64,000 nucleotides of DNA from a virus (IMGVR_UViG_3300044825_002608:1-64000); one strand, 5' to 3'; shown: positions 11,971-48,949, counted from the stretch's first letter. Notes: a model not told the origin generated them from the letters alone. Program-made: numbers and translations.

Positions 11971-11979
11971 ATTCTTCTC

Positions 11980-34263: not shown

Positions 34264-35265
34264 ATGAAAGTTGCTTTAATTACCGGAATTACAGGACAAG
34301 ATGGATCTTATCTTGCAGAATTTCTACTGGAAAAGGGATATCAAGTTCATGGAATTATTAGAAGAAATTCTAGTATAAACACGCATAGATTAGATCATAT
34401 CTTTGATAGTATTAAATTGCATTATGGCGATTTAACAGATTCTACAAATTTAATAAAAGTCATTCAGTGTGTCCAACCTCATGAGATTTATAATCTTGGT
34501 GCTCAAAGTCATGTAAAAGTTTCATTTGAAATGCCAGAATATACTGGTGAAACTGATGCACTGGGAACTCTTCGTATTCTTGAAGCAGTTCGTTTGCTTG
34601 GTATGGAAAATCATACTAGAATTTACCAAGCATCAACATCTGAAATGTTTGGAAAGGTGCAAGAGGTTCCTCAAAAAGAAACTACACCTTTTTATCCACG
34701 CTCACCCTATGGAGTCGCAAAAGTTTATGGATACTGGATTGTCAAAAACTACAGAGAATCATATGGACTACATGCAAGTTCTGGAATTCTTTTCAATCAC
34801 GAATCCCCTAGAAGAGGAGAAACTTTTGTCACAAGAAAAATCACTCGCGGACTATCATCTATTTCAACTGGGCAACAAGATGTATTATATCTCGGGAATT
34901 TGAATGCAAAAAGAGATTGGGGTCACGCTAAAGATTTTGTTGAGGCAATGTGGTTAATGCTTCAACAAGATGAACCTGATGATTATGTAATCGCAACAGG
35001 AAAGCAATATTCAGTTAGAGAGTTTATTGAAGCAGCGGCACCTTACTTTGGAATGAAAATTACATGGAAAGGTGAAGATATTGATGAAGTTGGAATTGAC
35101 AAACTTACCGGAAAAACGGTCATTAAAGTAGATCCTAAATATTTTCGACCTGCTGAAGTAGAGACCTTATTAGGTGATGCCACTAAGGCAAAACAAAAAT
35201 TAGGTTGGGAACCTAAAATTTCATTTGAACAATTAGTTGAGGATATGTGCATCTATGGGCAATGA
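34264..35265 (+). CDS. gmd: GDP-mannose 4,6-dehydratase
   Basis: [41 protein letters not shown]. Confidence 0.97.
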
Positions 35266-35266
35266 G

Positions 35267-36502
35267 ATGTTTTATAAAATAGATAAATGTAGAATTTGTG
35301 GAAATGAGGATCTTATTGAGATTTTAGATTTAGGAAATCAATATGTTTCTGGAATATTTCCTAAGAAAGTAGATTTAAATTTATACAGAGGACCATTAAA
35401 ACTAGTTAAATGCAGTGAAAGTGGTGGTGGTTGTGGTCATGTTCAACTAGAACACACATTTCATCTACCAACAATGTATGGTGATGAGTATGGGTATCGC
35501 TCTGGTCTTAATAAGAGTATGGTTGATCATTTAAATTCAAAATATAATAAAATTGTAGATTTTATAAATTTTGATGATAATGACATTGTGATTGATATTG
35601 CAGGAAATGATGGAACATTTCTTGGATTCTTTCCAACAAATTTAAGACTTCTAAGTATTGATCCAACATCTAAGAAGTTTTCAAAATATTTCAAAGATCA
35701 TGTGAAATATACTCCAAACTTTTTTTCCGAAGATTTGTATAGACAGAATTTTGGTAATGAAAAGGCAAAGTTGGTCACATCATTTTCTATGTTTTATGAC
35801 TTAGAAAATCCTTGTCAGTTTGCAAAAGAAGTTAACAACATTCTTGATCCAGAAAAAGGAATCTGGGTGTTGGAGCAAAGTTATATGCCAACTATGGTAG
35901 ATAAAAATTCCTTTGACACCATATGCCATGAGCATCTTTCTTATTATGGAATGAAGCAAATGAAATACATATTTGATCATTCTAATTTTAAGATTGTGGA
36001 TTTTGAATTTAATGATGTGAATGGAGGAAGTGTATCCATTGTAGTTGCTAATAAAAATAGTCAGTATGTTGAATGTAGTGAAAAACTTAATTCAATTTTA
36101 AAATTTGAAATAGACGACGGATATAATACCGTTGAATTGTGGAAAAAATTTGAAGATAATATTAATTCCTGTAAAATTAAATTTTTTGAAATTGTTAATC
36201 AACTAAAGACTGATGGTCTAAGAATTGCTGCCTTGGGTGCTAGTACAAAGGGTAATATAACACTTCAAACTTGGAATCTAAGTGAATGTATAGAAGTAAT
36301 AGGAGATGTAAATCCTGAAAAAAATGGATCATTTACCCCAGGTACATGGATTCCAATTAAAGATGAAAATAGTGTAATTGATCAGTACGATGTTTTTGTC
36401 ATTCTTCCTTGGCATTTTAGAAACTTCTTCATGAATGCCGAAAAATTTAAAGGTAAAAAACTTTTATTTCCTTTGCCAAATCCTGAACTTATCACGGTGT
36501 AA
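35267..36502 (+). CDS. NDP-hexose C-methyltransferase-like protein
   Basis: N-terminal Zn motif CRICG..C..C, YGYRSG, DIAGNDG, FDTICHEHLSYY, GASTKG, ILPWHF. Confidence 0.85.
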   Translation: MFYKIDKCRICGNEDLIEILDLGNQYVSGIFPKKVDLNLYRGPLKLVKCSESGGGCGHVQLEHTFHLPTMYGDEYGYRSGLNKSMVDHLNSKYNKIVDFINFDDNDIVIDIAGNDGTFLGFFPTNLRLLSIDPTSKKFSKYFKDHVKYTPNFFSEDLYRQNFGNEKAKLVTSFSMFYDLENPCQFAKEVNNILDPEKGIWVLEQSYMPTMVDKNSFDTICHEHLSYYGMKQMKYIFDHSNFKIVDFEFNDVNGGSVSIVVANKNSQYVECSEKLNSILKFEIDDGYNTVELWKKFEDNINSCKIKFFEIVNQLKTDGLRIAALGASTKGNITLQTWNLSECIEVIGDVNPEKNGSFTPGTWIPIKDENSVIDQYDVFVILPWHFRNFFMNAEKFKGKKLLFPLPNPELITV

Positions 36503-36505
36503 ATT

Positions 36506-37447
36506 ATGAAAATGAATAAAGATTCTAAAATTTTTGTAGCTGGTCATAGAGGATTAGTTGGATCAGCAATCGTGAGATCTCTAAACGAAAGGGGATACAC
36601 TAATATAGTAACAAGAACCAGGTCAGAGGTTGATTTGTTAAATCAATCGCAAGTCGAAGAATTTTTTAAAACAGAAAACATTGACTACGTTTTTGATGCA
36701 GCTGCCCGTGTTGGGGGAATTAATGCAAATAATAAATATTCTGCTGAATTTGTATATGAGAATATTCAGATTCAAACTAATTTAATTCATTTCTCATGGA
36801 AATACGGTGTCAAAAAGTTTCTCTTTATTGGATCTGTTTGCATCTATCCAAAATATGCAGAAGTCCCTGTAAAAGAAGAATCTTTAATGACTGGTTATCT
36901 AGAACCTACAAATGATGCTTATGCCGTCGCTAAAATTTCGGGAATCAAAATGCTTCAGGCATACCATAAACAGTATGGATTTAAAAGCGTGTCTTTGATG
37001 CCATCTAACATCTATGGACCGGGGGACAATTTTCATCCAGAAAATGGGCACGTAATTCCTGCTATGATAACGAAATTTACCAATTCGAATGGAAAAAACG
37101 TTACATTCTGGGGCGATGGAACTCCAATGAGAGAATTTCTGTATTCTGATGATCTTGCAGATGCTTGTTTGTTTGCAATGGATAGATTTGAAAATGCAGA
37201 ATTAATTAATGTAGGATCTGGCAATAACGTGAGCATCAAAGAACTATCGCAAATGGTAGCGTCAGTTGTTGGATATTCTGGTAAAATAGATTGGGACACT
37301 TCCAAACCAAATGGCACACCAAATAGACCTTTAGATTATTCCAAAATTAAAGAACTTGGTTGGCAACCAAAACACACTCTTCATGAGGGACTTAAAAAAT
37401 CATATAAATGGTTTTTTGAAAACACTTGCTATGATTCATTAAAATAA
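36506..37447 (+). CDS. fcl: GDP-L-fucose synthase
   Basis: VAGHRGLVGSA, AAARVGGI, GSVCIYP, LEPTNDAYAVAK, WGDGTPMREF. Confidence 0.95.
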   Translation: MKMNKDSKIFVAGHRGLVGSAIVRSLNERGYTNIVTRTRSEVDLLNQSQVEEFFKTENIDYVFDAAARVGGINANNKYSAEFVYENIQIQTNLIHFSWKYGVKKFLFIGSVCIYPKYAEVPVKEESLMTGYLEPTNDAYAVAKISGIKMLQAYHKQYGFKSVSLMPSNIYGPGDNFHPENGHVIPAMITKFTNSNGKNVTFWGDGTPMREFLYSDDLADACLFAMDRFENAELINVGSGNNVSIKELSQMVASVVGYSGKIDWDTSKPNGTPNRPLDYSKIKELGWQPKHTLHEGLKKSYKWFFENTCYDSLK

Positions 37448-37451
37448 AAAA

Positions 37452-38129
37452 ATGTATAATAAAGTTTTTAATTTACAGGATTTTGAGATTTTTAATAAAA
37501 TTCTATTAGAAAATCAGTGGAATTGTTTTCCACCTCAGCATCAATGGGAACACAGTACTCATGTTTGTAAAGTTGTAAGTTTACTTGAAATAGTAAAGCA
37601 ATTTGATAAACCACAAAAAATCGTAGACATAGGATCTGCTGCTGGAGCCTTTCCACACTTAGCACAAAAAATGGGACATGATGTAACTGCTATTGATCTG
37701 GAGGGGTATAAGTACTTTTCTCAACTTGGAACAAATGCACTTTCTAAACTAATTACTGGAGATATTTTTGTAGAACTTGATAAACTGGAAGACAATAGCG
37801 TAGATATTTTTTCTGATGTCTGCTCAGTTACTCATTTTAATCACGAATCATTTACAAACAAAGTTCATGATTTAAATCAATGGGAAAGAGTTTCTCAAAA
37901 AATTCACAGACCTTTGAAAAAGAATGGGCACTTTATAGTTTCAACAGATTGTAATGTTAGTAATACAAATGGTGAATTTATTTCACCATCCAAAATTATT
38001 GAATATGTTGAAAAAAATGGATTTGCTCTAAATGGTGAGTACAAAAAAGAATATGAAAATACAGATTGTTATATTGTATATAATGGTCAAAAACTTTCAG
38101 TAGTGTGCTTGGACTTCATAAAGTTATGA
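37452..38129 (+). CDS. class I SAM-dependent methyltransferase
   Basis: IVDIGSAAG motif I, VTAIDL. Confidence 0.75.
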   Translation: MYNKVFNLQDFEIFNKILLENQWNCFPPQHQWEHSTHVCKVVSLLEIVKQFDKPQKIVDIGSAAGAFPHLAQKMGHDVTAIDLEGYKYFSQLGTNALSKLITGDIFVELDKLEDNSVDIFSDVCSVTHFNHESFTNKVHDLNQWERVSQKIHRPLKKNGHFIVSTDCNVSNTNGEFISPSKIIEYVEKNGFALNGEYKKEYENTDCYIVYNGQKLSVVCLDFIKL

Positions 38130-38836
38130 AAAAAAAATTTGCTGTATGTTTTTCTGGATATCCTAGATTTGTCAAAAAAACATTTCCTGGGATATCTGAA
38201 AATTTATTAAAAGGACTGGGTGATTATGACATATATGCACACTTTCAATGGACTGATGATTGGAAAAATAAAAAAATCCATCATTGTTTTGATAAAACAT
38301 TCGAATCAAATGAATTAGAAGATTTTATTGAAGTATATACTCCATTTAATCTAAAAAAAATAAATGTAATTAAACCATATAATTTTGACGTATCAAATTA
38401 CAATGGACTATCGTTATATCCTGGAATGAATTTAACGATTGAACAGAGTAGAGATCAATTTTATAGAAGTAAGTGTCAATATCAGGGAATAGTTGATTGT
38501 ATTAATTTAATTGATAATTTGGAAGATTATGAATACTTTATCAGGATTAGATCTGATTTGATTTTTGAAAAGAAGTTAGAACTTAAAAATTTTGATAGCG
38601 ATTGTATTGTAAATCAAAATGGATATATTGCTGGTTGGGATAGGAAATTTTGCGATTGGTTTTTTATCTGTCCGCGAAATCAATTAAACTTTTTTAAAGA
38701 ACTTTCTAATATTGAACACCATTATAAAGACGGAATAGTTGCAATGCATTCTTTAGTAGAAGAATTGGGTATTCCATATAATATGAAAATTGACGAATTT
38801 AATATTCAATTACCATTTAAATTTTACTCTGAATAA
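38126..38836 (+). CDS. putative glycosyltransferase (SGxPR family, paralog 1)
   Basis: AVCFSGYPR...IRIRSDL...DWF. Confidence 0.55.
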   Translation: MKKKFAVCFSGYPRFVKKTFPGISENLLKGLGDYDIYAHFQWTDDWKNKKIHHCFDKTFESNELEDFIEVYTPFNLKKINVIKPYNFDVSNYNGLSLYPGMNLTIEQSRDQFYRSKCQYQGIVDCINLIDNLEDYEYFIRIRSDLIFEKKLELKNFDSDCIVNQNGYIAGWDRKFCDWFFICPRNQLNFFKELSNIEHHYKDGIVAMHSLVEELGIPYNMKIDEFNIQLPFKFYSE

Positions 38837-38841
38837 ACTGT

Positions 38842-39618
38842 ATGAAAGTAGCATTAATTTTATCTGGTCAACCCAGATTTGTAAGAGAATCTTTTCCATA
38901 TCTGCATCAAAATATTATCAATCAATATGATGTTGATATTTTTGCACATTTATGGTTTGATGAAAATCTAACTAAAAATCCATATAAAGTTGAAGGTAAT
39001 TGGACTTCTCAAACAATTGATCAAAATGCTGTAGAATATTTCAAAGAACTTTATAGACCAAAATTAATTGAAGTTGAAGAAAGTATTCTTTTTAGAAATA
39101 AAAATTTAAACTTTGAACCTAGTTTAAAAAAGTATGTGAATTGGCCTACACCAAATGCTCCTGAAAATATGAAAAATGGAACCGAAGGGTTTTCAAATTT
39201 GATTAAATCAAATCAGATATCATATTTTTATAGTTTGAATAAGGCAAATAATTTAAAAAGAAAATATGAATATACTCATGATTTTAAGTATGATTGGGTA
39301 ATTAGAACAAGAACAGATATTCAGTTGCATAATGCATTAAGACTAGAAACCTATGATTCAAACTTTGTTCATTACACTGACATTAATAATCAAGAGTCTG
39401 TAACTCCTGGTTTGATATGTGATTGGATAAATTTTGGAAATTCTTATGTGATGGATATATTTAATAGTTGTTTTTCGGTTTATGACCATCTCATAAATAT
39501 GTGCATAGAAACTAACGAAGGATCCTGGTGTCCAGAATTAGTTCACCGAAAAATGATTGAATTGCACGGTATTAAAGCACAAGGGCACTTCATTTCAGCA
39601 TCTTTACCTAGATTTTAA
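38842..39618 (+). CDS. putative glycosyltransferase (SGxPR family, paralog 2)
   Basis: ALILSGQPR...YDWVIRTRTDI...DWINFG..PE. Confidence 0.55.
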   Translation: MKVALILSGQPRFVRESFPYLHQNIINQYDVDIFAHLWFDENLTKNPYKVEGNWTSQTIDQNAVEYFKELYRPKLIEVEESILFRNKNLNFEPSLKKYVNWPTPNAPENMKNGTEGFSNLIKSNQISYFYSLNKANNLKRKYEYTHDFKYDWVIRTRTDIQLHNALRLETYDSNFVHYTDINNQESVTPGLICDWINFGNSYVMDIFNSCFSVYDHLINMCIETNEGSWCPELVHRKMIELHGIKAQGHFISASLPRF

Positions 39619-39619
39619 T

Positions 39620-40360
39620 ATGAATATAGTAATACCCATGGCAGGAGAGGGAACTAGATTTCCCCGAGATCAGTATAAAATACCCAAGCCACTAATAGAG
39701 ATTAATGGTAAACCAATGATTCAATGTGCTGTTGAATCTCTTGGAATAATAGGAACTTATCATTTTCTGGTTAGAAAAGATAGTTATTATGATCAGGTAT
39801 GTACCCTTCTTCACAAAATTCTTCCAGATCCAAAAATTATTAGTGTTGAGGAAACTACCGAAGGTCCTGCTTCAAGTTGTCTCTTATTTAAAAACTACAT
39901 TAATAACGAGGAAGAATTAATTATATGTAATTGTGATCAAATAATGTTATGGGATCCTGAATTATTCTTGTTAAACGCTAGGTACTATAAGTATGATGGT
40001 ATGATCGTAACATATAGTACTAATACTCCAAAAAATAGTTTTGCCCGCGTTAACTTTGAAGGATTTGTGGAACAGATCAAAGAGAAGGAAGTTATTAGTA
40101 ATATATCTTTAAATGGAATACATTATTGGAGAAAAGGTAAATATTTTGTACACAGTGCCGAAAATATGATACAATGTGATGATAGAGCTCCTAATGGTGA
40201 ATTCTACGTTGGTCCAACCTATAACTATATGATAAAGGATGGACTGAAAGTAGGTGTTCATCATATTCCAAACTACCAACACAATCCAGTGGGAGTTCCA
40301 GAAGATCTACAACTTTATATTGAAAAAGTAAAAAACAATGCAAATTACAAAAATCACTGA
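39620..40360 (+). CDS. sugar-phosphate nucleotidyltransferase
   Basis: IVIPMAGEGTRF..PKPLI, ICNCDQ, IKEKEVIS, NGEFYV. Confidence 0.85.
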   Translation: MNIVIPMAGEGTRFPRDQYKIPKPLIEINGKPMIQCAVESLGIIGTYHFLVRKDSYYDQVCTLLHKILPDPKIISVEETTEGPASSCLLFKNYINNEEELIICNCDQIMLWDPELFLLNARYYKYDGMIVTYSTNTPKNSFARVNFEGFVEQIKEKEVISNISLNGIHYWRKGKYFVHSAENMIQCDDRAPNGEFYVGPTYNYMIKDGLKVGVHHIPNYQHNPVGVPEDLQLYIEKVKNNANYKNH

Positions 40361-40664
40361 TTATGTTAGGGGGTGGTTTATTGGAAACTTTGAACCTTCG
40401 GTATTAAAAACATCAGATTTTGAAGTCGGTGTTTTAACACATAAAAAGGGAGAATACTGGGCACCACATTATCATAAAGAAAGTATCGAATATAATGTCC
40501 TGATAACTGGTAAAATGGTTGTTCAGGGAAATGAGTTAAATAGTGGTGATGTATTCGTATTTTCCAAGGGAGAGATTGCTGATCCAATTTTTCTTGAAGA
40601 TTGTACATTAGTTGTTGTAAAAGTACCTTCTATTCCATCTGATAAATTTGAGGTTGAAAAATGA
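40338..40664 (+). CDS. cupin-fold protein
   Basis: GWFIGNFEP...HYHKESIEYNVLITG...GDVFV. Confidence 0.75.
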   Translation: MQITKITDYVRGWFIGNFEPSVLKTSDFEVGVLTHKKGEYWAPHYHKESIEYNVLITGKMVVQGNELNSGDVFVFSKGEIADPIFLEDCTLVVVKVPSIPSDKFEVEK

Positions 40665-41899
40665 AATTTTTTAGAGAATTAACTGAACAAGAAAAAAATC
40701 GCTGTGTAGTTGCAACATATTATATTGAATCTTATGAACAAATTGGTTCACTGAGAGATGCTGCTTGGAATCTCGCAATTGGACAAAGTGTAGGTAATCC
40801 AAAAGTTCGTAACCGCTGGGAAAGTGATGAACTTTTTGAACTGGCATCTTGCGTCATTTATGAAGATGAGCAGGAACTCTCCCAAAAATTTTCTGGAAAA
40901 GTTAAAATTGGTTTTCCTAAGGTTAATACTGATTGGGAAGGTGACGGTATTTCTCATCTTCTTTGTCAAGTAATGGGTGGGCAGTTAGACATTGATGTTT
41001 TTAAAGTTTGTCGTCTTCAGAAACTAGAATTTCCTGCAGATGTAGAATCATTTTTTCTTGGACCCAAGAATGGTATTGATGGTATCCGTCAGTTTGTTAA
41101 TCGCTATGACAAACCACTTTCGGGTGCAATTGTAAAACCAAAGACCGGTATTTCACCACAAACTCTTGCTGAAATGGTCAAGGAACTTCTTGATGGTGGT
41201 GTAGATTTTATTAAGGAAGATGAGATTCTTTCCAATCCTTCATTCTGCCGTCTAGAGGATCGTGTAGAGTTGATTTCCAATATTGTGAATAACTGTGGAA
41301 GAAATGTAATTTATACATTTTGCATTAATGGTGATCACCATACTATTCTTGATCGTGCTAAGTTTGTTGCAGATAATGGTGGTAATGGAATTCATATCAA
41401 CTTCTGGTCTGGTCTTGGAGTTTACAACTCCGTAAGAAAAATGAATCTTCCTTTGTTCATGCATTATCAAAAAAGTGGTGACAAGATTTTGACTGATAAG
41501 AGGCACGCATTTGGTATTGATTGGGATGTTCTATGCGATCTTGCTGGACTTTGTGGTGTGGATACTATTCATGCTGGAATGTGGGGTGGTTATCTGAGTG
41601 ATGACGAAGATGAACTACGTCAAACTATGGCAACACTTCACAAGAGAAATGTTCTCCCGGCACTGAGTTGTGGAATGCATCCAGGTATCGTGAATACTAC
41701 TGCAGAGAAATTTGGAACTGACTTCCTTGCAAATTGTGGTGGTGCAATTCATGGACATCCTGGTGGAACTCTATCTGGTGCGTTGGCGATGAGGCAGGCA
41801 ATTGATAAAACTCCTGGTCCAGAATTCCGTTCCGCTATCGATAAATGGGGTTATGAAACTGGTGGTGGATCTTTGCCTGAGTGGGTACTAGATTTTTGA
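40661..41899 (+). CDS. RuBisCO-like protein (Form IV)
   Basis: GPKNG..G.R, IVKPKTG, GGVDFIKEDE, DTIHAG, LSCGMHPG, GGAIHGHPGG. Confidence 0.9.
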   Translation: MKFFRELTEQEKNRCVVATYYIESYEQIGSLRDAAWNLAIGQSVGNPKVRNRWESDELFELASCVIYEDEQELSQKFSGKVKIGFPKVNTDWEGDGISHLLCQVMGGQLDIDVFKVCRLQKLEFPADVESFFLGPKNGIDGIRQFVNRYDKPLSGAIVKPKTGISPQTLAEMVKELLDGGVDFIKEDEILSNPSFCRLEDRVELISNIVNNCGRNVIYTFCINGDHHTILDRAKFVADNGGNGIHINFWSGLGVYNSVRKMNLPLFMHYQKSGDKILTDKRHAFGIDWDVLCDLAGLCGVDTIHAGMWGGYLSDDEDELRQTMATLHKRNVLPALSCGMHPGIVNTTAEKFGTDFLANCGGAIHGHPGGTLSGALAMRQAIDKTPGPEFRSAIDKWGYETGGGSLPEWVLDF

Positions 41900-41900
41900 T

Positions 41901-42395
41901 ATGAAAATTATTTCTCATCGAGGCAATTTAACTGGCATTAATCCAATTAGAGAAAATAGTATCGATTATATTGAAGAGGCTATTGCTGAAGGATTTGATG
42001 TTGAAATTGATTTGAGAGTTGAGGATCATCAGTGTTATCTTGGTCACGACGATCCTCAATATTATGTGACCATGGAATGGCTGAGAAAATATAAAGATGT
42101 TCTTTGGATTCATTGTAAGAATCGTGAGGCACTTGAAAAAATATCTAGTTCTGTGGTAGAATTTAACTACTTTTGGCATGAGAGTGATCGATACACTTTA
42201 ACCAGCAAGGGAATTGGGTGGGTTTTAGTCGGACAACTACCATATTCAAAATCTGTGATTGTCTTGCCTGAAAATAGTGAATTGTTCTCTCAAAATCCAG
42301 AATACATACAAGAAGGATACGGTATTTGTACTGATAATCCAATTTTTTATAAAAAAATAGTAAAAGAGATTAAACCTTATGAAGTGGCAAACTGA
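41901..42395 (+). CDS. GDPD/PLC-like phosphodiesterase
   Basis: ISHRGN...EN...VEIDL...LGHD...WIHCKN...ICTD. Confidence 0.75.
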   Translation: MKIISHRGNLTGINPIRENSIDYIEEAIAEGFDVEIDLRVEDHQCYLGHDDPQYYVTMEWLRKYKDVLWIHCKNREALEKISSSVVEFNYFWHESDRYTLTSKGIGWVLVGQLPYSKSVIVLPENSELFSQNPEYIQEGYGICTDNPIFYKKIVKEIKPYEVAN

Positions 42396-43020
42396 TCTTA
42401 TCAAAGATATTAGAAGCAATACCCCATATGATGATACCGAAGCAGGTATCAATCATTTTCTACATATCTGGCCTGGTATTGAAGAAGATCCTGGTGTTCT
42501 AAATCCTTTTGATGGTGTTGAGTGTAGTGAGTGTAACAAAGCAGCTTTGTTGGAGCAATTTTTAAAAGTTCGTGATAATTGTGAAGCAATTCTTGAAATT
42601 GGAATTGGTAGAAATGGTGAAAATTCTTTTGCTCACGTTTTCTTTAAAAATAAAAAAGAAGAAACTAAGTATGTAGGAATTGACATTGAAGACCGTAGTT
42701 GGCTGATTGATTGTGGTGAAAACATCTACACAATTCAAGGTAGTAGTTCAAACTATGAGGAAAATGTAGAAATCTTCAAAACTATGGGGATTGAAAAGTT
42801 TGATTTTATTTTTATTGATGGCGACCATAGTGTAAATCAAGTTCTTAGAGATTGGGAATATTCAAATCTTCTTAATGAAGGTGGTATTGTTGGATTCCAT
42901 GATACTAGTCATCATACTGGACCTTATCTATTCGTTAGAAATTTAAATAAGGATGTTTGGGATGTAATTGAAAATGCTTGCCCACAAGACTATGGAATTG
43001 GATTTGCTAGAAAAAAATAA
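42379..43020 (+). CDS. class I SAM methyltransferase (Methyltransf_24-like)
   Basis: ILEIGIG, FDFIFIDGDHS, GGIVGFHD. Confidence 0.85.
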   Translation: MKWQTDLIKDIRSNTPYDDTEAGINHFLHIWPGIEEDPGVLNPFDGVECSECNKAALLEQFLKVRDNCEAILEIGIGRNGENSFAHVFFKNKKEETKYVGIDIEDRSWLIDCGENIYTIQGSSSNYEENVEIFKTMGIEKFDFIFIDGDHSVNQVLRDWEYSNLLNEGGIVGFHDTSHHTGPYLFVRNLNKDVWDVIENACPQDYGIGFARKK

Positions 43021-43023
43021 ATC

Positions 43024-44031
43024 ATGAATCACATTGAAAAACTAAAGTCAAAGTATAAAGTTATTGTTTGGGGATTTAAACCTAATTCCCAAGGAATTTA
43101 TAAAAATACTGTAGGATATGTTTGGAATGGATTTTATAGAGGTTTCAAATCATTAGGGTTTGAAACCTATTGGTTTTCTGATGATGATTATGATGAAACA
43201 ATAGATTATTCTAATTGTATCTTCATCGCTGAAGCCTGGGATAGTAATAAGATACCCATTAATGATACTTCTATTTACTATGTGCATTGTGCATACGATC
43301 CTGCCAAATATATTGGAAAGGTGAAGAAGTTCGTTGACATGCGTTATAATCAAAAATATATGCGTAATCCAAATTATATTTTTGATCGAAATAAAGATGA
43401 AGACGTTAAATTGGGACCATGTTGCTATTATCAACAGTCTACAAATAAAACCATTCATCTTAAGAATGGATATGTTGACTATGATATTGAAGACTTTGAT
43501 AAAATTTACACAAACTGGGCAACCGATTTACTTCCCGAAGAAATGAATGAAAATGACATTTATTTGGAAAGGGAAAATCTAATTGTATTTCTTGGGACAG
43601 TCTATTCTGATCAATACACAAATATTCCAGAATTACAGGAATTTGCACAGGTTTGTGAAAAAAATAATGTCAATTTCTTAGTTAATCCTTACTCTTATGG
43701 ATCTGACCAAATTTCTGTCAGTGATTACATATCAAATTACAAAAGATCATTATTTGGATTGGATTTAAGGGGTAAGGATAATAGAGAAACTGGATATATC
43801 CCATGTAGGGTATTCAAAAATGCAAGTTATGGTCTTTTAAGTACAACGAATTCTGAAGAAGTTTATAAAGAAATGGAAGGTTATTGTGTTTATAATCCTT
43901 CCGTGACTCAATTATTTTATGATGCTATGCAAAAAAGAACAGATTTTGAATTCATTAAAGACTCTTTTTATTATGTAAAAGAAAATCATACTTATATCAA
44001 TAGATGTTCTGACCTACTGAAAATTTTATGA
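43024..44031 (+). CDS. putative glycosyltransferase (GT-B-like)
   Basis: YIPCRVFKNASYG...VKENHTYINR C-terminal pattern; glycan-island context. Confidence 0.6.
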   Translation: MNHIEKLKSKYKVIVWGFKPNSQGIYKNTVGYVWNGFYRGFKSLGFETYWFSDDDYDETIDYSNCIFIAEAWDSNKIPINDTSIYYVHCAYDPAKYIGKVKKFVDMRYNQKYMRNPNYIFDRNKDEDVKLGPCCYYQQSTNKTIHLKNGYVDYDIEDFDKIYTNWATDLLPEEMNENDIYLERENLIVFLGTVYSDQYTNIPELQEFAQVCEKNNVNFLVNPYSYGSDQISVSDYISNYKRSLFGLDLRGKDNRETGYIPCRVFKNASYGLLSTTNSEEVYKEMEGYCVYNPSVTQLFYDAMQKRTDFEFIKDSFYYVKENHTYINRCSDLLKIL

Positions 44032-44750
44032 AAGTAGCATTTTGTTTTTGTGGACAACCTAGAAATGTTGTTAAAACTCTTGATAACATTAAGGAATCGT
44101 GGGGAACTAATCAAGAATTAGATTTTTTCTTCCATACATGGAAACCTGACGGCACAACTCCTTATCGGATTGATACGCCGTCTGATTTTTATTTTAAGGG
44201 TATTGAGCAATACTTACTGAAAAAATTAAATCCAGTTATGTATGAAATTCAGGAGCAAATAATCTTCGAAAATCAATATGAAGATTCTCCTCACTGGCCT
44301 ACCCGTAGTGTTTTTATTCCAAATCCATCTCAAAATATTCAATCATTTTTTTACTCTTTAAAAAAATCTAATGATTTAAAGAGGCAATATGAAATCGAAA
44401 ACAATTTTCGTTACGATTGTGTAATTAGATGTAGATTTGATTATATCTTTACAAAGAAATACAATGTTAAAGATTTTGACTTAAATTATTTAAATGTAAA
44501 AAATGATTGTAAGCATACTGAATATGCAATTAATGATCATATTGCAGTATCAAATAGTGAAAATATAGATGCTTATTGTTCTGTATTTGATAATCTTGAA
44601 AAATATTATAATCAGGGTATTGAGTTCAATGCTGAAGTAATGCTAGGATATAATGCTATGATGCATGGATTAAAATATCACAAAACTCTTGGTGATGGTA
44701 AAGAGTCTTATGTATCAACTCAATTTGAAAGAGCGAAGGTTTTCTCATGA
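44028..44750 (+). CDS. putative glycosyltransferase (SGxPR family, paralog 3)
   Basis: AFCFCGQPR...YDCVIRCRFD...NDHIA. Confidence 0.55.
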   Translation: MKVAFCFCGQPRNVVKTLDNIKESWGTNQELDFFFHTWKPDGTTPYRIDTPSDFYFKGIEQYLLKKLNPVMYEIQEQIIFENQYEDSPHWPTRSVFIPNPSQNIQSFFYSLKKSNDLKRQYEIENNFRYDCVIRCRFDYIFTKKYNVKDFDLNYLNVKNDCKHTEYAINDHIAVSNSENIDAYCSVFDNLEKYYNQGIEFNAEVMLGYNAMMHGLKYHKTLGDGKESYVSTQFERAKVFS

Positions 44751-45706
44751 ATATTGCTTTTATTGGTCCTGGTGTAATGCCAATCCCACCAGATGGTTGG
44801 GGTGCAGTGGAAATGATGATTTGGGATTATGCTACAATTATGGGTGATCTTGGTCACACTGGTGCAATCATTAATACTCCAGATAGGAATGAAATTATTA
44901 ATGAATTGATGCAGGATAAATTTGATGTGGTTCACTTACATTATGATGTGTTCCATGACATAATCCCAATTATACTTGAAACTATAGATACAAAACTAAT
45001 CGTTTCTAGTCATTATCCATATATTAACAATCCTAGTATGTGGAATCGTGATAATTATCATCCAATAATGAATTCTTATGCGAGAAACGATAATTTTTAT
45101 ATCTTTGCATCTAGTCAAAATGACATCAATACATTTATAAACCATGGTGCAAAAGAAGAAAATTGTTGGATGAGTAGACTAGGAGTTCTTTCTAGTTCTT
45201 ACAAGTTTGATCAGAATCATACATATGAAAAAACTCTGTGCTTCTCTCAAATTTGTGACCGTAAGCGACAGTATTTAATTCAAGATTTTGATGATGTTGA
45301 TTTTGTTGGTCGTATAGAATATGGTAAATTTAATAATCGAAAAAATTATAAAGGAGAATATACTAGAGATACTTTAAATTCTGAAATTACAAAGTATGGT
45401 AATTTTACACTATTAAGTTCTATTGAAAATACAACTCCTCTTGCAGTAAAAGAAGCTCTAGTTTGTGGGTTGGGTGTAGTTGTTTCTGAAGCAGTTTCTT
45501 TAGAATTAGATTGCACTCAAAAATTTATTGATGTAATTCCTGAAAATAAGATCAATGATTTATCTTTTCTACATGATGTGATTAAATCTAATCGAGAGTA
45601 TTCTATTTCTCATAGAGAGGAAATAAAACAATATGGTGATAATGTTTTTGGATTGCAGAGTATCATTGAAAATGAATATATTCCAAAATTAGAATCTCTA
45701 CTATGA
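44747..45706 (+). CDS. glycosyltransferase (GT4-like)
   Basis: PIPPDGWGAVE...ENTTPLAVKEALVCGLGVVVS. Confidence 0.8.
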   Translation: MNIAFIGPGVMPIPPDGWGAVEMMIWDYATIMGDLGHTGAIINTPDRNEIINELMQDKFDVVHLHYDVFHDIIPIILETIDTKLIVSSHYPYINNPSMWNRDNYHPIMNSYARNDNFYIFASSQNDINTFINHGAKEENCWMSRLGVLSSSYKFDQNHTYEKTLCFSQICDRKRQYLIQDFDDVDFVGRIEYGKFNNRKNYKGEYTRDTLNSEITKYGNFTLLSSIENTTPLAVKEALVCGLGVVVSEAVSLELDCTQKFIDVIPENKINDLSFLHDVIKSNREYSISHREEIKQYGDNVFGLQSIIENEYIPKLESLL

Positions 45707-46647
45707 AAATAAGTATTATTGGTCCAAATACTCCCATCCCTCCTATTGGATGGGGTGCTGTTGAGAGTTTGATATGGGATGTCAAACTAACATTAGATGA
45801 ATTGGGACACAATGTTCAGATCATCAACGTTGGAGATCCTTATAAGATCATTCAAATGATTAACGAGTATCGTCCAGATTTTGTTCACATCAATTATGAT
45901 GATTGGATTAGTATCTATCCATATGTTCAATATCCATGTGCGGTAACAACACACTTTGCATATATTGAACGACCAGAAATGATGGGCGATTATCGCCAAA
46001 GAATTTTCGATCAGTTTAAAAAAATTAAACCAAATGTATTTGGATTGTCTGAAGGGATTAATCACATCTACGAAAATCTTTCAAATATTCCTAAAAGCAA
46101 ACTTTATTTGAACCACAATGGTGTTGCCTTAAAAAATTTTAGAGTAACTTCAAATCCAAAGTATTCTGATAGATCAATCTATCTTGCAAAAATCGATTAC
46201 AGAAAACGGCAACATATGTTTCAAAAAATTGATTCTCTTTGGTATGCTGGGAATATTGCAGATTATAGATTTGACTCTAATAAAAATTATCTTGGTGAGT
46301 GGCAAAAAAATTATCTTTATGAAAACTTGACTGAGTATGGTAACTTAGTTCTATTGAGTGATGGTGAGGCACATCCTCTAGTTTGTATGGAAGCATTTGC
46401 TGCTGGACTGGGGGTAGTTATTAGTCAGTGGGCAGCGGCAAATTTAGATCTTAAAAAAGAGTTTATTACGGTTATACCTGAAGATAAAATAAATGATATT
46501 GAGTTCGTCGATGAATGTATTAAACGTAATAGGGAATATTCTATTCAAAATAGGAGTGAGATATTAGAATATGCAAAACAGTTTGATTGGAAAAATGTAA
46601 TCAGCAATTATTACATACCAAATATTAAAAAGGTTATTGAATTATGA
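45703..46647 (+). CDS. glycosyltransferase (GT4-like), paralog of the preceding gene
   Basis: PIPPIGWGAVE...EAHPLVCMEAFAAGLGVVIS. Confidence 0.8.
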   Translation: MKISIIGPNTPIPPIGWGAVESLIWDVKLTLDELGHNVQIINVGDPYKIIQMINEYRPDFVHINYDDWISIYPYVQYPCAVTTHFAYIERPEMMGDYRQRIFDQFKKIKPNVFGLSEGINHIYENLSNIPKSKLYLNHNGVALKNFRVTSNPKYSDRSIYLAKIDYRKRQHMFQKIDSLWYAGNIADYRFDSNKNYLGEWQKNYLYENLTEYGNLVLLSDGEAHPLVCMEAFAAGLGVVISQWAAANLDLKKEFITVIPEDKINDIEFVDECIKRNREYSIQNRSEILEYAKQFDWKNVISNYYIPNIKKVIEL

Positions 46648-47435
46648 TAGGATTTAATTCTTTAGGAAAACTTGGAAGATTTGGAAATCAAATGTTTCAA
46701 TATGCTGCTCTCAAAGGAATCGCTAGTAATCGAGGATATGAAATTTGCATACCAATATCTGAGAGTAAAAATGAATGGACTGATCATCAACTTAACTGTG
46801 CATTTAAGATGTCAACTTTAAATCAGTTGAACTATCAATACATTGACTATGATCGTCCTACTGTAGTTGAAAGTGGATTTTCTTTTGATGAAAAATTATT
46901 TAATGAGTGTCCTGATTGGGTAACTATTCAAGGGTTTTTTCAAACAGAAAAATACTTTAAACATATTCGCAATCAACTCTTAATTGATTTTCAATTTCAT
47001 GATGATATTTTAGAACCTGCAAAAGAAGTTATTCTAAATTGGAAAAATCCAGTTGCTCTTCATATACGCAGAACGGATTACATTACAAATCCAAATCACA
47101 GTGTATTACCTATTGAGTATTACGAAAAATCTTTGAAAGAATTTGATGAAAATTGTGAAATAATTATATTCTCTGATGATCCTCAGTGGTGTGCAGAGCA
47201 AAAACTTTTTGAATCTGATAGATTTATGATTTCTGAAACAGATAATAACTACTTAGACATGTGCCTTATGTCTCTTTGCTCTGGGCATATTATTGCCAAT
47301 AGTTCTTTTAGTTGGTGGGGTGCGTGGTTGTCGAATAGTAAAAAAGTTATTGCCCCATCAAATTGGTTTGGTGAGTCTCATAATAAACACCTAGATACTA
47401 AAGATCTTATACCGGAAAATTGGATGGTGATTTGA
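46644..47435 (+). CDS. alpha-1,2-fucosyltransferase (GT11)
   Basis: GRFGNQMFQYA, GFFQTEKYF, HIRRTDY, IANSSFSWWGAWL. Confidence 0.92.
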   Translation: MIGFNSLGKLGRFGNQMFQYAALKGIASNRGYEICIPISESKNEWTDHQLNCAFKMSTLNQLNYQYIDYDRPTVVESGFSFDEKLFNECPDWVTIQGFFQTEKYFKHIRNQLLIDFQFHDDILEPAKEVILNWKNPVALHIRRTDYITNPNHSVLPIEYYEKSLKEFDENCEIIIFSDDPQWCAEQKLFESDRFMISETDNNYLDMCLMSLCSGHIIANSSFSWWGAWLSNSKKVIAPSNWFGESHNKHLDTKDLIPENWMVI

Positions 47436-48151
47436 TGAAAGTTGCAATTGTATTCATTGGTACTTCAAAGTATTTAAATTTTCTTCCAAAATACTATGAC
47501 AATATCCATGAAAATTTTCTTCCCAATTCAGAAAAAACATTTTTAGTTTTTACCGATGGTGAGGGAGATTTTCCTGAAGATATTAAAGTCTACCCTCAGG
47601 AACATCTTGAGTGGCCTTATATTACATTAACTCGTTTTGAGATTATTAATAGGGCAAGGGAAGAAATTCTTAAAAATGATTGGTTAGTATTTTTGGATGC
47701 CGATACTCTTGTTGTAGATAAAGTATCTGAAGAAGAATTTTTTACAGACAAGCATTTATTTGGAGTTTGGCATCCTTGCCATTACTTACAAATGCCTCCG
47801 CATAATAAATTGCCTGGAGCATTTGAAACTAATTCAAAATCTTTATCTTATGTTGACGTTGAAAAGGAAATGCCATCCATTTACTATCAGGGATGTTTAT
47901 GGGGAGGAAAAGTTCCTTATGTGCTAGAAATGATTGATGAACTTCAAGATAGGGTAAATAAAGATCTTGATAATGATGTTGTTGCTATTTGGCATGATGA
48001 AAGTCATTTGAACAAATATTTTATAGAACATAACAACGATGTTCATACTTTAAATTCTGAATATGCTTATCCTGAAGTATTTTCTGAATATTGTAACTTT
48101 GAACCAAAAATTATTCACCTTGCAAAAGATAATTCTAAGTATCAAACTTAA
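47435..48151 (+). CDS. family 6 glycosyltransferase (alpha-1,3-Gal/GalNAc transferase-like)
   Basis: FIGTSKY, VFTD, WPYITLTRF, DAD, YYQGCLWGG, WHDESHLNKYF. Confidence 0.9.
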   Translation: MKVAIVFIGTSKYLNFLPKYYDNIHENFLPNSEKTFLVFTDGEGDFPEDIKVYPQEHLEWPYITLTRFEIINRAREEILKNDWLVFLDADTLVVDKVSEEEFFTDKHLFGVWHPCHYLQMPPHNKLPGAFETNSKSLSYVDVEKEMPSIYYQGCLWGGKVPYVLEMIDELQDRVNKDLDNDVVAIWHDESHLNKYFIEHNNDVHTLNSEYAYPEVFSEYCNFEPKIIHLAKDNSKYQT

Positions 48152-48154
48152 AAA

Positions 48155-48949
48155 ATGGACAAAAATAAATCTGCATATAAACTAAAAAACATTGCTCCAA
48201 TTTATTATCTTAATCTTGATGGGCAACCTGAGAGAATGGAGTACATGGAGGAGCAATTTAAATATTGGGAAATAGAAAATTACACTCGCATTTCTGCTTA
48301 TGATGGACGTGAAGATGATCTAAGCGATATTGTCAAGGGACGTTATCCAGAAAATATGACTTCTGGAGAAATTGGATGTACAACTTCTCATCTAAAAGCA
48401 ATTAAACACTGGTATGAAACTAGTGACTCTCCCTATGCAATTTTCATGGAAGATGATGTGGACTTGCAACTTGTTAAATTTTGGAATTTTACATGGAAGG
48501 ATTTTGCATCTAAATTGCCTTATGATTGGGATGTTATTCAACTTGCAATTATCTGCACAGGAAACCTACACGTAAAACTTCACAAAAGGTTTGTAAATGA
48601 TTTTTCTACCGCTGCATACATGATTACGCGACATCATGCAGAAAAACTCATAAAATTTCATATTCGTGATGATAAGTACAAATTAGATCAAGGTGTAAAA
48701 CCTAGAGCAGTTGCAGATGATCTAATTTATAACTCTGGTAATACGTATTCAATACCTCTATTTCTGTATCGTATTGAACTTGGGTCATCAATTCATCCAG
48801 AACATATTGATGTTTTTCATCGAGGTAGTCATGATGGACTGCTTCAATTTTGGGAAAAGCAGGGGTATGAAATGAATATTGATGATCTGATGGACTATGA
48901 TCCATATTTGGGAAGAATCACGGAGTCTTCCCAACCGCACGGTCAGTGA
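48155..48949 (+). CDS. family 25 glycosyltransferase
   Basis: YYLNLD..PER, RISAYDG, GEIGCTTSH, FMEDDV. Confidence 0.88.
   Translation: MDKNKSAYKLKNIAPIYYLNLDGQPERMEYMEEQFKYWEIENYTRISAYDGREDDLSDIVKGRYPENMTSGEIGCTTSHLKAIKHWYETSDSPYAIFMEDDVDLQLVKFWNFTWKDFASKLPYDWDVIQLAIICTGNLHVKLHKRFVNDFSTAAYMITRHHAEKLIKFHIRDDKYKLDQGVKPRAVADDLIYNSGNTYSIPLFLYRIELGSSIHPEHIDVFHRGSHDGLLQFWEKQGYEMNIDDLMDYDPYLGRITESSQPHGQ

What the first reader, a model, noticed from the sequence alone, without database searches (positions are those of the whole stretch)
39620..42395. Phage-encoded RuBisCO-like protein in a nucleotidyltransferase-cupin-RLP-phosphodiesterase cassette inside a glycan island
Seen: four overlapping or abutting genes in the middle of a glycosyltransferase island. 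The 412-aa protein keeps the RuBisCO metal/carbamate site (GVDFIKEDE, ~41198-41224; K201/D203/E204 equivalents), KPK (K175/K177), H294, H327, S379 and the GG phosphate loop. By eye alignment it lacks E60 (AIGQSVG), N123, R295 (HY) and K334 (GGY). Established: Form IV RLPs do not fix CO2; they act as enolases, isomerases or (trans/de)carboxylases on sugar-phosphate-like substrates, mostly in salvage or catabolic pathways. Inference: here the RLP works in biosynthesis, making an unusual (keto, branched or epimerised) sugar phosphate. The nucleotidyltransferase and GDPD-like enzyme would activate or process it, and the flanking SGxPR-family proteins would transfer it. A virus-borne RLP in glycan biosynthesis would be a new role for this fold and is the best candidate for an undescribed system here.
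Basis: partly seen in the sequence, partly recalled or inferred. Interest (0 to 1): 0.92.

Follow-up and report, generated by a model that had tools for sequence, protein, structure and literature searches.

The report
Phage RuBisCO-like sugar-activation gene cassette
A freshwater T4-like cyanophage carries an intact RuBisCO relative that cannot fix CO2 and that sits beside, and is sometimes fused to, a sugar-activating enzyme and a small cupin in phages, SAR11, Legionella and tiny archaea, so it probably helps build an unusual activated sugar, a role never tested for this enzyme family.

Summary
Four translationally coupled genes sit at 39620-42395: a nucleotidyltransferase, a cupin, a 412-aa RuBisCO-like protein (RLP) and a mini-GDPD. 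They lie inside a 15-kb glycan island of a Kyanoviridae phage.

One residue call was wrong. The H294 position is Gln and the R295 position is Lys. The Mg/carbamate triad, KPK, H327, S379 and the GG loop are kept. E60, N123, H294 and K334 are lost, so it is not a carboxylase.

The protein belongs to a separate, strongly supported clade, apart from Form III, MtnW and OiaX-like proteins. This is most likely the 'Form IV-like' phage RLP group already published by Jaffe et al. 2019, with function unknown.

New here is how tightly it is linked to its neighbours:
- The nucleotidyltransferase lies within four genes in 56 of 66 dereplicated RLP groups, viral and cellular.
- Natural RLP-NTase and RLP-NTase-cupin fusion proteins exist.
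- DUF7796-like putative glycosyltransferases are a recurrent fifth partner.

Best reading (0.6): the RLP enolises a keto-sugar phosphate and feeds an NDP-sugar pathway. The substrate is unknown and nothing has been shown biochemically.

This scan found the same cassette earlier on other DNA (at least 8 notes). It is not chimeric: the stretch is held whole in 13 freshwater runs from 5 studies, and 230 viral contigs encode a relative of the RLP.

The parts
39620..40360 (+). Sugar-1-phosphate nucleotidyltransferase-like gene (NTase), 246 aa from the ATG at 39620
   Evidence: Pfam NTP_transferase scores 26.2 bits against a cut-off of 21.2, and NTP_transf_3 scores 29.1 against 27. The family profile A2 hits PDB 4evw 'nucleoside-diphosphate-sugar pyrophosphorylase' at E 1.3e-33, then RmlA, GalU, GlmU and ManC-type enzymes. 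G9, K23, D106, E155 and K156 are invariant or nearly so. It lies next to the RLP in 107 of 110 loci that hold both.
40338..40664 (+). Small single-domain cupin, 108 aa
   Evidence: Pfam Cupin_7 and Cupin_2 match below their cut-offs. The metal motif H44-x-H46-x4-E51, plus H35, is conserved in 23 diverse homologues. The profile hits solved cupins, including a 113-aa 'mannose-6-phosphate isomerase', 7zvm. It is fused C-terminally to RLP-NTase in P0275 and P0276.
40661..41899 (+). RuBisCO-like protein (Form IV-like), 412 aa, non-carboxylating
   Evidence: Pfam PF00016 gives E 3.4e-43. It falls below every curated NCBIfam cut-off: Form III 194 against 497, MtnW 165 against 409, OiaX 154 against 700. 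The AF2 model has pLDDT 94 and TM 0.86 to Form III. For the active-site pattern see the observation check. It sits in a 28-row clade with 100% SH-aLRT support.
41901..42395 (+). Miniature GDPD-like phosphodiesterase-fold protein, 164 aa (ORF4)
   Evidence: H6, R7, N19, E35, D37, H49, H71 and K73 are invariant in 33 homologues. The profile hits solved GDPDs 3i10 and 7e0v. The AF2 model has pLDDT 95, and the top Foldseek matches are GDPDs with TMq 0.60-0.66. It gives reciprocal HMM hits with the full-length GDPDs that sit in DPANN RLP loci.
42379..43020 (+). Methyltransferase (Methyltransf_24 / CmcI-like), a frequent accessory gene of the cassette
   Evidence: Pfam. It lies within 4 genes of the RLP in 14 of 66 dereplicated groups.
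38105..39618 (+). Two tandem DUF7796-like genes (38105-38836 and 38842-39618), putative glycosyltransferases
   Evidence: Pfam DUF7796 matches weakly. They are homologous to c47 (SAR11) and c21 (Bacteroidota and viral), which flank the module elsewhere. Atlas look-alikes are viral 'glycosyltransferase / capsular polysaccharide biosynthesis' clusters with TM 0.77-0.87.
44028..44750 (+). Third DUF7796-like paralogue
   Evidence: cluster 5.
34264..48949 (+). Glycan island of 16 co-oriented genes that holds the cassette
   Evidence: It contains GDP-mannose 4,6-dehydratase, a C-methyltransferase, an epimerase, methyltransferases and GT4-like, GT11, GT6 and GT25 genes. Terminator-like hairpins lie at 34206 and 49704. 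Contigs from four studies cover it at even depth.

Best explanation
The 412-aa protein is a functional, non-carboxylating member of a distinct RuBisCO-like clade. This is most likely the published 'Form IV-like' phage RLP group.

It keeps the carbamylated-Lys/Mg2+ centre, the proton-abstracting K175/K177 pair and the P1 phosphate cradle. It has lost every residue needed to add and hydrate CO2. It should therefore still form a 2,3-enediolate on a keto-sugar phosphate, and then reprotonate it (epimerise or isomerise it) rather than carboxylate it.

It works as one step of a compact biosynthetic module. The metal-dependent cupin probably acts as an aldose/ketose-type isomerase on the same phosphorylated intermediate. 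The sugar-1-phosphate-type nucleotidyltransferase then converts the product into an NDP-activated sugar. DUF7796-like and other glycosyltransferases of the island would use that sugar to decorate a glycan during infection, either a host surface polysaccharide or a virion component.

The mini-GDPD is a conserved accessory that handles a phosphodiester, either supplying or trimming a phospho-sugar or transferring it. Its step is the least defined.

Shown: the folds, the residue patterns, the gene linkage and the fusions. Inferred: the substrate, the order of steps, the product and the glycan target.
For: (1) Catalytic pattern. K175, K177, K201, D203, E204, H327, S379, G381 and G403/404 are kept. 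E60->G, N123->G, H294->Q and K334->Y. All of these are at least 98% conserved in 134 family members. This shows a selected, altered active site, not decay.

(2) A separate clade. It has 100% SH-aLRT support and is apart from rows labelled Form III, MtnW and OiaX-like. It scores under all curated NCBIfam cut-offs.

(3) Linkage.
- 230 IMG/VR contigs and 40 GTDB genomes encode relatives.
- In 66 groups dereplicated at 90% RLP identity, these genes lie within 4 genes of the RLP: the NTase in 56, the GDPD-like gene in 41, the cupin in 33 and a DUF7796-like gene in 24.
- The NTase is directly adjacent in 107 of 110 loci. RLP and NTase divergence are correlated, rho 0.82.

(4) Rosetta-stone fusions. 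RLP-NTase occurs as P0126, 667 aa. RLP-NTase-cupin occurs as P0275 (813 aa) and P0276 (817 aa).

(5) NTase type. The profile matches NDP-sugar pyrophosphorylases (4evw 1.3e-33, then RmlA, GalU, ManC and HddC). It has the GxGTR loop and an invariant E-K pair. From memory, that pair corresponds to the EKP sugar/phosphate motif of RmlA-type enzymes.

(6) Context. In this window and in many viral loci the cassette is embedded in glycosyltransferase and sugar-tailoring genes. LicD lies next to RLP-NTase in four Legionellaceae loci (three Legionella type strains and a Tatlockia MAG), and GT2 genes flank it in Turneriella and Francisellaceae.

(7) The gene is intact and translationally coupled to its neighbours. 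The stretch is held whole (0.98-1.00 of sampled words) in 13 freshwater metagenome runs from 5 studies.
Against: No enzyme of the module has been assayed, and no solved or characterised close homologue exists: the best PDB identity for the RLP is about 27%.

The cupin is missing from about half of the groups and from most SAR11 and DPANN loci. The three-enzyme scheme therefore cannot be universal.

In some SAR11 genomes the module lies beside thyX and an Mrp-like ATPase, not glycan genes.

Synechococcus phages B3 and B23 keep a HAD-NTase fusion plus the mini-GDPD without any RLP. The NTase/GDPD pair therefore does not depend on the RLP.

Nothing here shows how a sugar-1-phosphate would arise from an RLP product.

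Expression was not tested: no RNA holder was listed.
Confidence: 0.6

Rival explanations
1. Salvage module. The RLP and cupin recycle SAM by-products (5-methylthio- or 5-deoxy-pentulose-1-phosphates), as in the MtnW/MtnX/MtnD methionine salvage pathway or the Rhodospirillum rubrum RLP + cupin MTA-isoprenoid shunt. The nucleotidyltransferase would be incidental, or would activate a salvaged sugar.
For: RLP + cupin pairs have two characterised precedents (from my own knowledge; the papers listed cover these pathways). HAD-NTase fusions occur in some RLP loci (L082, L085), which loosely echoes RLP, HAD phosphatase and cupin in methionine salvage. E60->G is shared with the MtnW clade.
Against: It is not in the MtnW clade and falls far below the MtnW cut-offs. 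Position 123 is G here, not the K of MtnW. K177 and a basic residue at 295 are kept here but lost in MtnW. No conserved gene cluster other than the NTase, cupin, GDPD-like, DUF7796-like, SDR and methyltransferase families recurs near the RLP, so no MtnA, MtnK, MtnB or MtnP-like partner was seen. The fusion of the RLP to an NTase has no place in a salvage route.
Confidence: 0.1
2. Catabolic or carbon-rerouting auxiliary gene. The RLP breaks down or rearranges a host sugar phosphate or sugar acid, as the apionate-pathway RLPs do, to feed the pentose phosphate pathway that cyanophages boost.
For: talC (31243-31908) and gnd (32109-33131) lie just upstream of the island. The protein gives a partial match to OiaX, 154 bits. 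A basic residue at position 295 is kept, as in the OiaX-like clade.
Against: talC and gnd are separated from the island by 12/12 sigma-70-like promoters and a terminator-like hairpin. The conserved partners are an NTase and transferase-like genes, not kinases, dehydrogenases or transporters. The fusion with an NTase argues for anabolism.
Confidence: 0.08
3. The RLP acts after nucleotide activation. Its P1 site binds the beta-phosphate of an NDP-keto-sugar, and it epimerises or isomerises the sugar while it is still nucleotide-linked. The cupin would act like an RmlC/FdtA-type NDP-sugar isomerase.
For: Small cupins that act on NDP-4-keto sugars are well known (from my own knowledge). The gene order NTase, cupin, RLP and the fused order RLP-NTase-cupin fit either order of reaction. 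The island also encodes a 4,6-dehydratase, which makes NDP-keto-sugars.
Against: All known RuBisCO and RLP substrates are free phosphate esters held in a closed pocket (from my own knowledge). The 4,6-dehydratase is not a conserved partner: the SDR cluster lies near the RLP in only 15 of 121 loci.
Confidence: 0.15
4. Artefact or relic: a chimeric contig carrying bacterial DNA, or a decaying, non-functional RuBisCO remnant.
For: The closest cellular homologues, in SAR11, are 60-66% identical. No cultured phage record holds the gene.
Against: Phage core genes lie on both sides of the island in one 99.7-kb record. Relatives occur in 230 viral contigs, several of 100-200 kb. The stretch is held whole in 13 runs from 5 studies, and long contigs at even depth cross the cassette. 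The frame is intact and the altered active-site residues are at least 98% conserved.
Confidence: 0.02

Closest known systems
'Form IV-like' RuBisCO-related proteins of phages and Beckwithbacteria (Jaffe, Castelle, Dupont & Banfield 2019, Mol Biol Evol, PMC6389311)
   Same: They are RLPs on myovirus-type phage contigs from IMG/VR. They are highly divergent from other RLPs, keep only part of the key residues, and have unknown function. The window's protein fits that description: it is phage-borne, T4-like and in a separate clade.
   Different: That paper reports phylogeny and residue logos only. The passages I read mention no nucleotidyltransferase/cupin/GDPD linkage, no fusions, and none of the SAR11, Legionella, Verrucomicrobia or DPANN members found here. 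I could not align its sequences directly, so identity of the two clades is inferred.
MtnW (YkrW) 2,3-diketo-5-methylthiopentyl-1-phosphate enolase, with MtnX (HAD) and MtnD (cupin)
   Same: It has the RuBisCO fold and keeps K175, K201, D203 and E204 for Mg-dependent enolisation of a keto-sugar 1-phosphate. E60 is G in both. It works alongside a cupin and a HAD enzyme.
   Different: It is a separate clade, and the window protein falls below both MtnW cut-offs. Position 123 is K in MtnW and G here. K177 is lost in MtnW and kept here. H294 is kept in MtnW and is Q here. Position 295 is P in MtnW and K/R here. MtnW has no nucleotidyltransferase partner.
Rhodospirillum rubrum DeepYkrW RLP (5-methylthioribulose-1-phosphate isomerase) + cupin methylsulfurylase
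   Same: An RLP isomerase is followed by a small cupin that acts on its product. This is a precedent for RLP-cupin coupling (from my own knowledge; the papers cover this shunt).
   Different: That is a salvage pathway leading to isoprenoid precursors, with no NDP activation. Clade membership relative to this RLP was not tested directly.
Bifunctional type II phosphomannose isomerase / GDP-mannose pyrophosphorylase (AlgA/XanB/ManC type)
   Same: An NTP_transferase domain is combined with a cupin sugar-phosphate isomerase in one nucleotide-sugar pathway (from my own knowledge). The cupin here has weak matches to small 'mannose-6-phosphate isomerase' cupins.
   Different: Here the two are separate genes, or are fused together with an RLP. 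Neither protein reaches the curated cut-offs of the ManC/PMI families.
GmhB (HAD phosphatase) + HddC (nucleotidyltransferase) steps of GDP-heptose synthesis
   Same: A sugar bisphosphate is trimmed to a sugar-1-phosphate and then nucleotide-activated. The NTase profile hits HddC structures 5xhw and 6jq8. HAD-NTase fusions occur in related loci and in phages B3 and B23.
   Different: The heptose pathway has no RLP or cupin. The similarity is distant, E about 4e-6.

Membership tests
Bona fide RuBisCO (Forms I-III, carboxylase) | Full catalytic set: E60, N123, K175, K177, K201, D203, E204, H294, K334 | tested here: not met
   E60->G41, N123->G107, H294->Q270 and K334->Y311, invariant in the family. 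The Form III model scores 194.5 bits against a cut-off of 497.
RuBisCO large-subunit superfamily (fold) | N-terminal alpha/beta domain plus C-terminal TIM barrel with the KxDE metal/carbamate motif | tested here: met
   PF00016 gives E 3.4e-43. The AF2 model has pLDDT 94 and TM 0.86 to 8dht, 2d69 and 3a12. K185, D187 and E188 are present.
'Form IV-like' phage RLP clade (Jaffe et al. 2019) | Encoded on myovirus-type phage contigs; branches apart from the described RLP clades | tested here: met
   T4-like core genes flank the gene. It sits in a 28-row clade with 100% SH-aLRT support, apart from the Form III, MtnW and OiaX-like rows.
'Form IV-like' phage RLP clade (Jaffe et al. 2019) | Groups with that paper's own sequences in a joint tree | not testable with these tools
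   The paper's sequences are not held here. Only its text was read.
MtnW / YkrW enolase | Passes the curated equivalog models and branches with the MtnW clade; K at position 123 | tested here: not met
   NF007095 scores 165 against 409 and TIGR03332 scores 122.6 against 513.6. The clade is separate. Position 123 is G.
OiaX 3-oxo-isoapionate-4-phosphate decarboxylase | Passes NF042437 | tested here: not met
   154 bits against a cut-off of 700. The OiaX-like rows form another clade.
Sugar-1-phosphate nucleotidyltransferase (PF00483) | Passes the Pfam gathering score; GxGTR loop | tested here: met
   26.2 bits against 21.2. The protein begins MAGEGTRF. The profile hits 4evw at 1.3e-33. Substrate specificity was not tested.
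GDPD (PF03009), for ORF4 | HR...E.D...H catalytic motif and a TIM-barrel GDPD fold | tested here: inconclusive
   The motif residues are invariant. The profile hits solved GDPDs at E 1.8e-5. A full-GDPD HMM hits ORF4 at 1.5e-10. Foldseek's top matches are GDPDs, but at E about 8e-3. Pfam itself gives no hit, and at 164 aa the protein is too short for a full barrel.
Cupin superfamily | HxH...E metal motif in a small beta-barrel | tested here: inconclusive
   The motif is conserved. Pfam Cupin_7 and Cupin_2 score below their cut-offs. The profile hits solved cupins at E 1.9e-5.

The most novel reading that the evidence does not exclude
This RLP clade is the first RuBisCO-fold enzyme with a biosynthetic role.

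The phosphate would stay on C1 throughout. The cupin opens an aldose-1-phosphate (for example a pentose-1-phosphate from nucleoside turnover) to the ketose-1-phosphate. The RLP inverts or shifts the stereocentre next to the carbonyl through its 2,3-enediolate. This is the same chemistry as RuBisCO's xylulose-bisphosphate misfire. The cupin then closes the new aldose-1-phosphate, and the fused or adjacent nucleotidyltransferase traps it as a rare NDP-sugar.

DUF7796-like transferases would install that sugar on a surface glycan. Phages, SAR11, Legionella and DPANN would exchange the module as a strain-variable trait.
Probability: 0.25. Interest if true: 0.85.

Novelty: new variant of a known kind. 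Interest (0 to 1): 0.68.

Why it matters
RuBisCO-like proteins have so far been tied to salvage and catabolism: methionine salvage, the MTA-isoprenoid shunt and apionate breakdown. The phage 'Form IV-like' group has stood since 2019 as a large clade with no function.

The linkage and fusion evidence turns that clade into a testable hypothesis. A RuBisCO-fold enoliser would be dedicated to making a nucleotide-activated sugar, with a defined set of two to five partner proteins and natural single-chain fusions that could be expressed directly.

If true, it would add a new reaction class to RuBisCO evolution. It would also add a new nucleotide-sugar pathway to glycobiology, and a new kind of auxiliary function to cyanophage biology: remodelling of a glycan rather than of carbon flux.

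The module is patchy. It was found in 2 of 301 SAR11-family genomes searched, in scattered Legionella and DPANN genomes, and in hundreds of phage contigs. That distribution fits a horizontally traded, surface-variation trait that is relevant to phage-host recognition.

Tried and rejected
Genomic context came from the search for related loci and my own ORF calling and clustering instead.
- tblastn of the RLP against 50,697 cultured-phage records found no match. Only the mini-GDPD matched, in Synechococcus phages B3 and B23.
- Sequencing runs: no RNA holder was listed, so expression is untested.
- Laid contigs gave a few low-support joints, for example 38019->49049 with 20-nt sides in two runs. 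These are too weak to call a deletion variant.
- The DUF7796-like profile found nothing in the PDB.
- A literature search for 'IV-GOS' found only a passing mention. From memory, I think Tabita's IV-GOS clade may overlap this family, but I could not test that.
- Searches for any paper linking RLPs to nucleotidyltransferases, nucleotide sugars, viral contigs or Legionella found nothing relevant.
- A search for CDP-2-glycerol pathway analogies was uninformative.
- T4-type late-promoter motifs are absent from the island, and sigma-70-like matches are no more frequent than in shuffles. No conclusion on timing can be drawn.
- Carboxylase, MtnW, OiaX, chimera and pseudogene readings were considered and rejected (see Rival explanations and Membership tests).


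Full report
WHAT IS THERE. The window is the first 64 kb of a 99.7-kb IMG/VR virus record that CheckV rates about 47% complete. T4-like core genes lie on both sides of the finding: DNA polymerase, DnaB-like helicase, RNR large subunit and baseplate/tail-fibre proteins. The DNA polymerase is 90% identical to that of Synechococcus phage S-SRM01 and 78-83% identical to those of S-SKS1 and P-SSM2. This is therefore a Kyanoviridae-type cyanomyovirus.

The exact stretch is held whole (0.98-1.00 of sampled words) in 13 freshwater metagenome runs from 5 studies. Contigs from four of those studies cover 34.7-49.1 kb at even depth, and single contigs cross the whole cassette. Some of these runs may be the source of the record.

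THE CASSETTE. ORF calling gives four tightly coupled genes:
- a nucleotidyltransferase (NTase) at 39620-40360;
- a cupin at 40338-40664;
- an RLP at 40661-41899;
- ORF4 at 41901-42395.

A CmcI-like methyltransferase at 42379-43020 overlaps ORF4. Two DUF7796-like genes lie directly upstream (38105-39618) and a third lies at 44028-44750.

The cassette sits in a co-oriented 15-kb island (34264-48949). The island encodes GDP-mannose 4,6-dehydratase, a sugar C-methyltransferase, an epimerase/reductase, methyltransferases and GT4-like, GT11, GT6 and GT25 glycosyltransferases.

THE RLP. Pfam RuBisCO_large matches at E 3.4e-43. The AF2 model (pLDDT 94) superposes on Form III RuBisCOs with TM 0.86 at about 27% identity.

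I aligned 134 family members with bona fide Form III anchors. One of the anchors used (P0214) passes the NCBIfam Form III cut-off. The pattern is as follows (cross-checked against the HMMER alignment to 2cwx).
- Kept: K175, K177, K201, D203, E204, H327, S379, G381 and G403/404.
- Replaced: E60->G, T65->N, N123->G, H294->Q, R295->K (or R), H298->D, K334->Y and G380->C.

Each of these is at least 98% conserved, except positions 295 and 298.

The centre that enolises the substrate and the P1 phosphate cradle survive. The residues that position and hydrate CO2 do not. A basic residue at 295 plus H327 leaves room for a second anionic group on the substrate. That last point is inference.

CLASSIFICATION. 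The protein falls far below every curated NCBIfam cut-off: Form III 194 against 497, MtnW 165 against 409 and 123 against 514, OiaX 154 against 700. I built a maximum-likelihood tree of 116 rows from an exhaustive HMMER search. In it the family forms a 28-row clade with 100% SH-aLRT support. The other 88 rows include those I labelled Form III, MtnW and OiaX-like.

The literature search led to Jaffe et al. 2019. They reported about 80 'Form IV-like' RLPs on phage contigs, some of them Myoviridae, plus Beckwithbacteria, and left the function open. The 2007 GOS paper had already noted unplaced RuBisCO homologue groups. I found no paper that assigns a function or describes the gene neighbourhood.

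LINKAGE. 230 IMG/VR contigs and 40 GTDB genomes encode relatives. The solid cellular cases are:
- a complete Pelagibacter chromosome;
- a complete Verrucomicrobiae chromosome;
- three Legionella type strains;
- an Azospirillum isolate;
- a 4.8-Mb Turneriella contig;
- many DPANN MAGs.

A few short MAG contigs, for example the 'Methanobacteriota' contig at 83% identity, are probably mis-binned phage.

I clustered all ORFs of 121 loci. The four largest neighbour families are exactly the NTase, the RLP, ORF4 and the cupin. Dereplicated at 90% RLP identity there are 66 groups. Within four genes of the RLP, the NTase is present in 56, a GDPD-like gene in 41, the cupin in 33, a DUF7796-like gene in 24 and the CmcI-like methyltransferase in 14. 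Several of the misses are at contig ends.

The NTase is directly adjacent in 107 of 110 loci that hold both genes, on either side of the RLP. RLP and NTase divergence are correlated, rho 0.82.

Natural fusions exist. RLP-NTase occurs as P0126, 667 aa. RLP-NTase-cupin occurs as P0275 and P0276, about 815 aa.

The module is rare and patchy within SAR11: 2 of 301 family genomes searched have it.

THE PARTNERS.

NTase. It passes the Pfam NTP_transferase cut-off. Its family profile matches an uncharacterised 'NDP-sugar pyrophosphorylase' structure (4evw, E 1.3e-33) and, more distantly, RmlA, GalU, GlmU, ManC and HddC. It carries the GxGTR loop and an invariant E-K pair.

Cupin. It keeps an HxH...E metal site. 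Its weak look-alikes include small 'mannose-6-phosphate isomerase' cupins.

ORF4. It has no Pfam hit. Its invariant HR...N...E.D...H...H.K pattern, its profile hits to solved GDPDs, its AF2 model with GDPDs as best Foldseek matches and its reciprocal HMM hits with the full-length GDPDs of DPANN RLP loci make it a miniature GDPD-fold protein.

DUF7796-like proteins. They turn out to be a fifth recurrent partner. The unannotated neighbours c47 (SAR11), c21 (Bacteroidota and viral) and c372 (Verrucomicrobia) belong to the same family. Atlas look-alikes are viral 'glycosyltransferase / capsular polysaccharide' clusters (a lead only).

Other context. In four Legionellaceae loci (three Legionella type strains and a Tatlockia MAG) a LicD-family transferase sits next to RLP-NTase. 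Synechococcus phages B3 and B23 carry a HAD-NTase fusion followed by the mini-GDPD, without an RLP or cupin. HAD-NTase fusions also occur in some RLP loci.

HOW IT MOST LIKELY WORKS. The shown facts are:
- an enolisation-competent, carboxylation-dead RuBisCO fold;
- obligatory pairing, and occasional fusion, with a sugar-1-phosphate-type NTase and a metal cupin;
- frequent glycosyltransferase surroundings.

The best inference (0.6) is that the RLP epimerises or isomerises a keto-sugar phosphate through its 2,3-enediolate, that the cupin interconverts aldose and ketose forms, and that the NTase traps the product as an NDP-sugar for DUF7796-like and other transferases.

A more specific scheme keeps the phosphate on C1 throughout: aldose-1-P, then ketose-1-P, then epimeric ketose-1-P, then aldose-1-P, then NDP-sugar. 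I rate this at about 0.25.

The mini-GDPD's step is undefined: supply, trimming or transfer of a phospho-sugar. It persists with the NTase in RLP-free phages, which ties it to the NTase rather than to the RLP.

RIVALS. I considered four: SAM by-product salvage (0.1), catabolic rerouting (0.08), action on an already nucleotide-linked keto-sugar (0.15) and artefact or relic (0.02). They are weighed in Rival explanations.

NOVELTY AND PRIOR NOTES. The gene family on phages is published. The conserved cassette, the fusions, the cellular distribution and the glycan-building hypothesis are not in any paper I could find.

This scan has met the same cassette before on other DNA, in at least eight notes. 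Those notes agree with my reading, and one pointed me to the Jaffe paper, which I then read myself.

I rate this as a new variant of a known kind, with interest 0.68. It is a strong, directly testable lead on an orphan RuBisCO clade, but it remains entirely inferential as to chemistry.

Noticed in passing
window 31243-33131: talC-type transaldolase (31243-31908) and 6-phosphogluconate dehydrogenase (32109-33131) lie just upstream of the glycan island. These are the usual cyanophage pentose-phosphate auxiliary genes. Two perfect 12/12 sigma-70-like promoters (33154, 33294) and a terminator-like hairpin (34206) lie between them and the island.
   Followed up: partly
window 34264-37447: GDP-mannose 4,6-dehydratase, a TylC3-like sugar C-methyltransferase (Methyltransf_13/14) and an epimerase/reductase lie in a row. 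This looks like a separate branch making a C-methylated 6-deoxy sugar.
   Followed up: no
L030-L037 and L081 (viral loci), e.g. L036:11235-12194 and L031:3326-4390: In one viral subgroup the RLP is followed by an APH/fructosamine-kinase-like kinase and a 3-dehydroquinate-synthase-like sugar phosphate cyclase. This hints at a cyclitol-type branch beside the cassette.
   Followed up: no
protein P0192 (583 aa): A distant RLP (about 30% identity) is fused to an N-terminal TIR_2 domain. This is an unexpected pairing of a RuBisCO fold with a domain typical of NAD-cleaving defence proteins.
   Followed up: no
proteins P0159 and P0169 (726 and 742 aa): These are IF-2B-family (ribose-1,5-bisphosphate / MTR-1-P isomerase type) domains fused to a full RuBisCO large subunit.
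   Followed up: no
L001 (Synechococcus phage B3, MN695334) 10631-12453: gp358 is annotated 'glucose-1-phosphate thymidylyltransferase'. It is in fact a HAD_2 + NTP_transferase fusion, followed by a homologue of the mini-GDPD (68% aa identity), in a glycosyltransferase island with no RLP or cupin.
   Followed up: partly
L097-L106 (SAR11 single-cell genomes and MAGs): A second SAR11 type of the module has two NTase genes flanking the RLP (mini-GDPD, NTase, RLP, NTase) plus a divergently oriented DUF7796-like gene. It sits next to thyX and an Mrp/NUBPL-like ATPase rather than glycan genes.
   Followed up: partly
window 38019 / 49049: Contigs of two runs (X4, X5) show a low-depth joint that skips 11 kb of the island, with only 20-nt sides. 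This could be an island-less variant or a repeat artefact.
   Followed up: no
G002:C1:975610-976794 (Verrucomicrobiae chromosome, L110): The RLP match there is read through 2 in-frame TGA codons. My own ORF call in L110 nevertheless gave an open 393-aa frame, so the match extension probably ran past the gene end.
   Followed up: no
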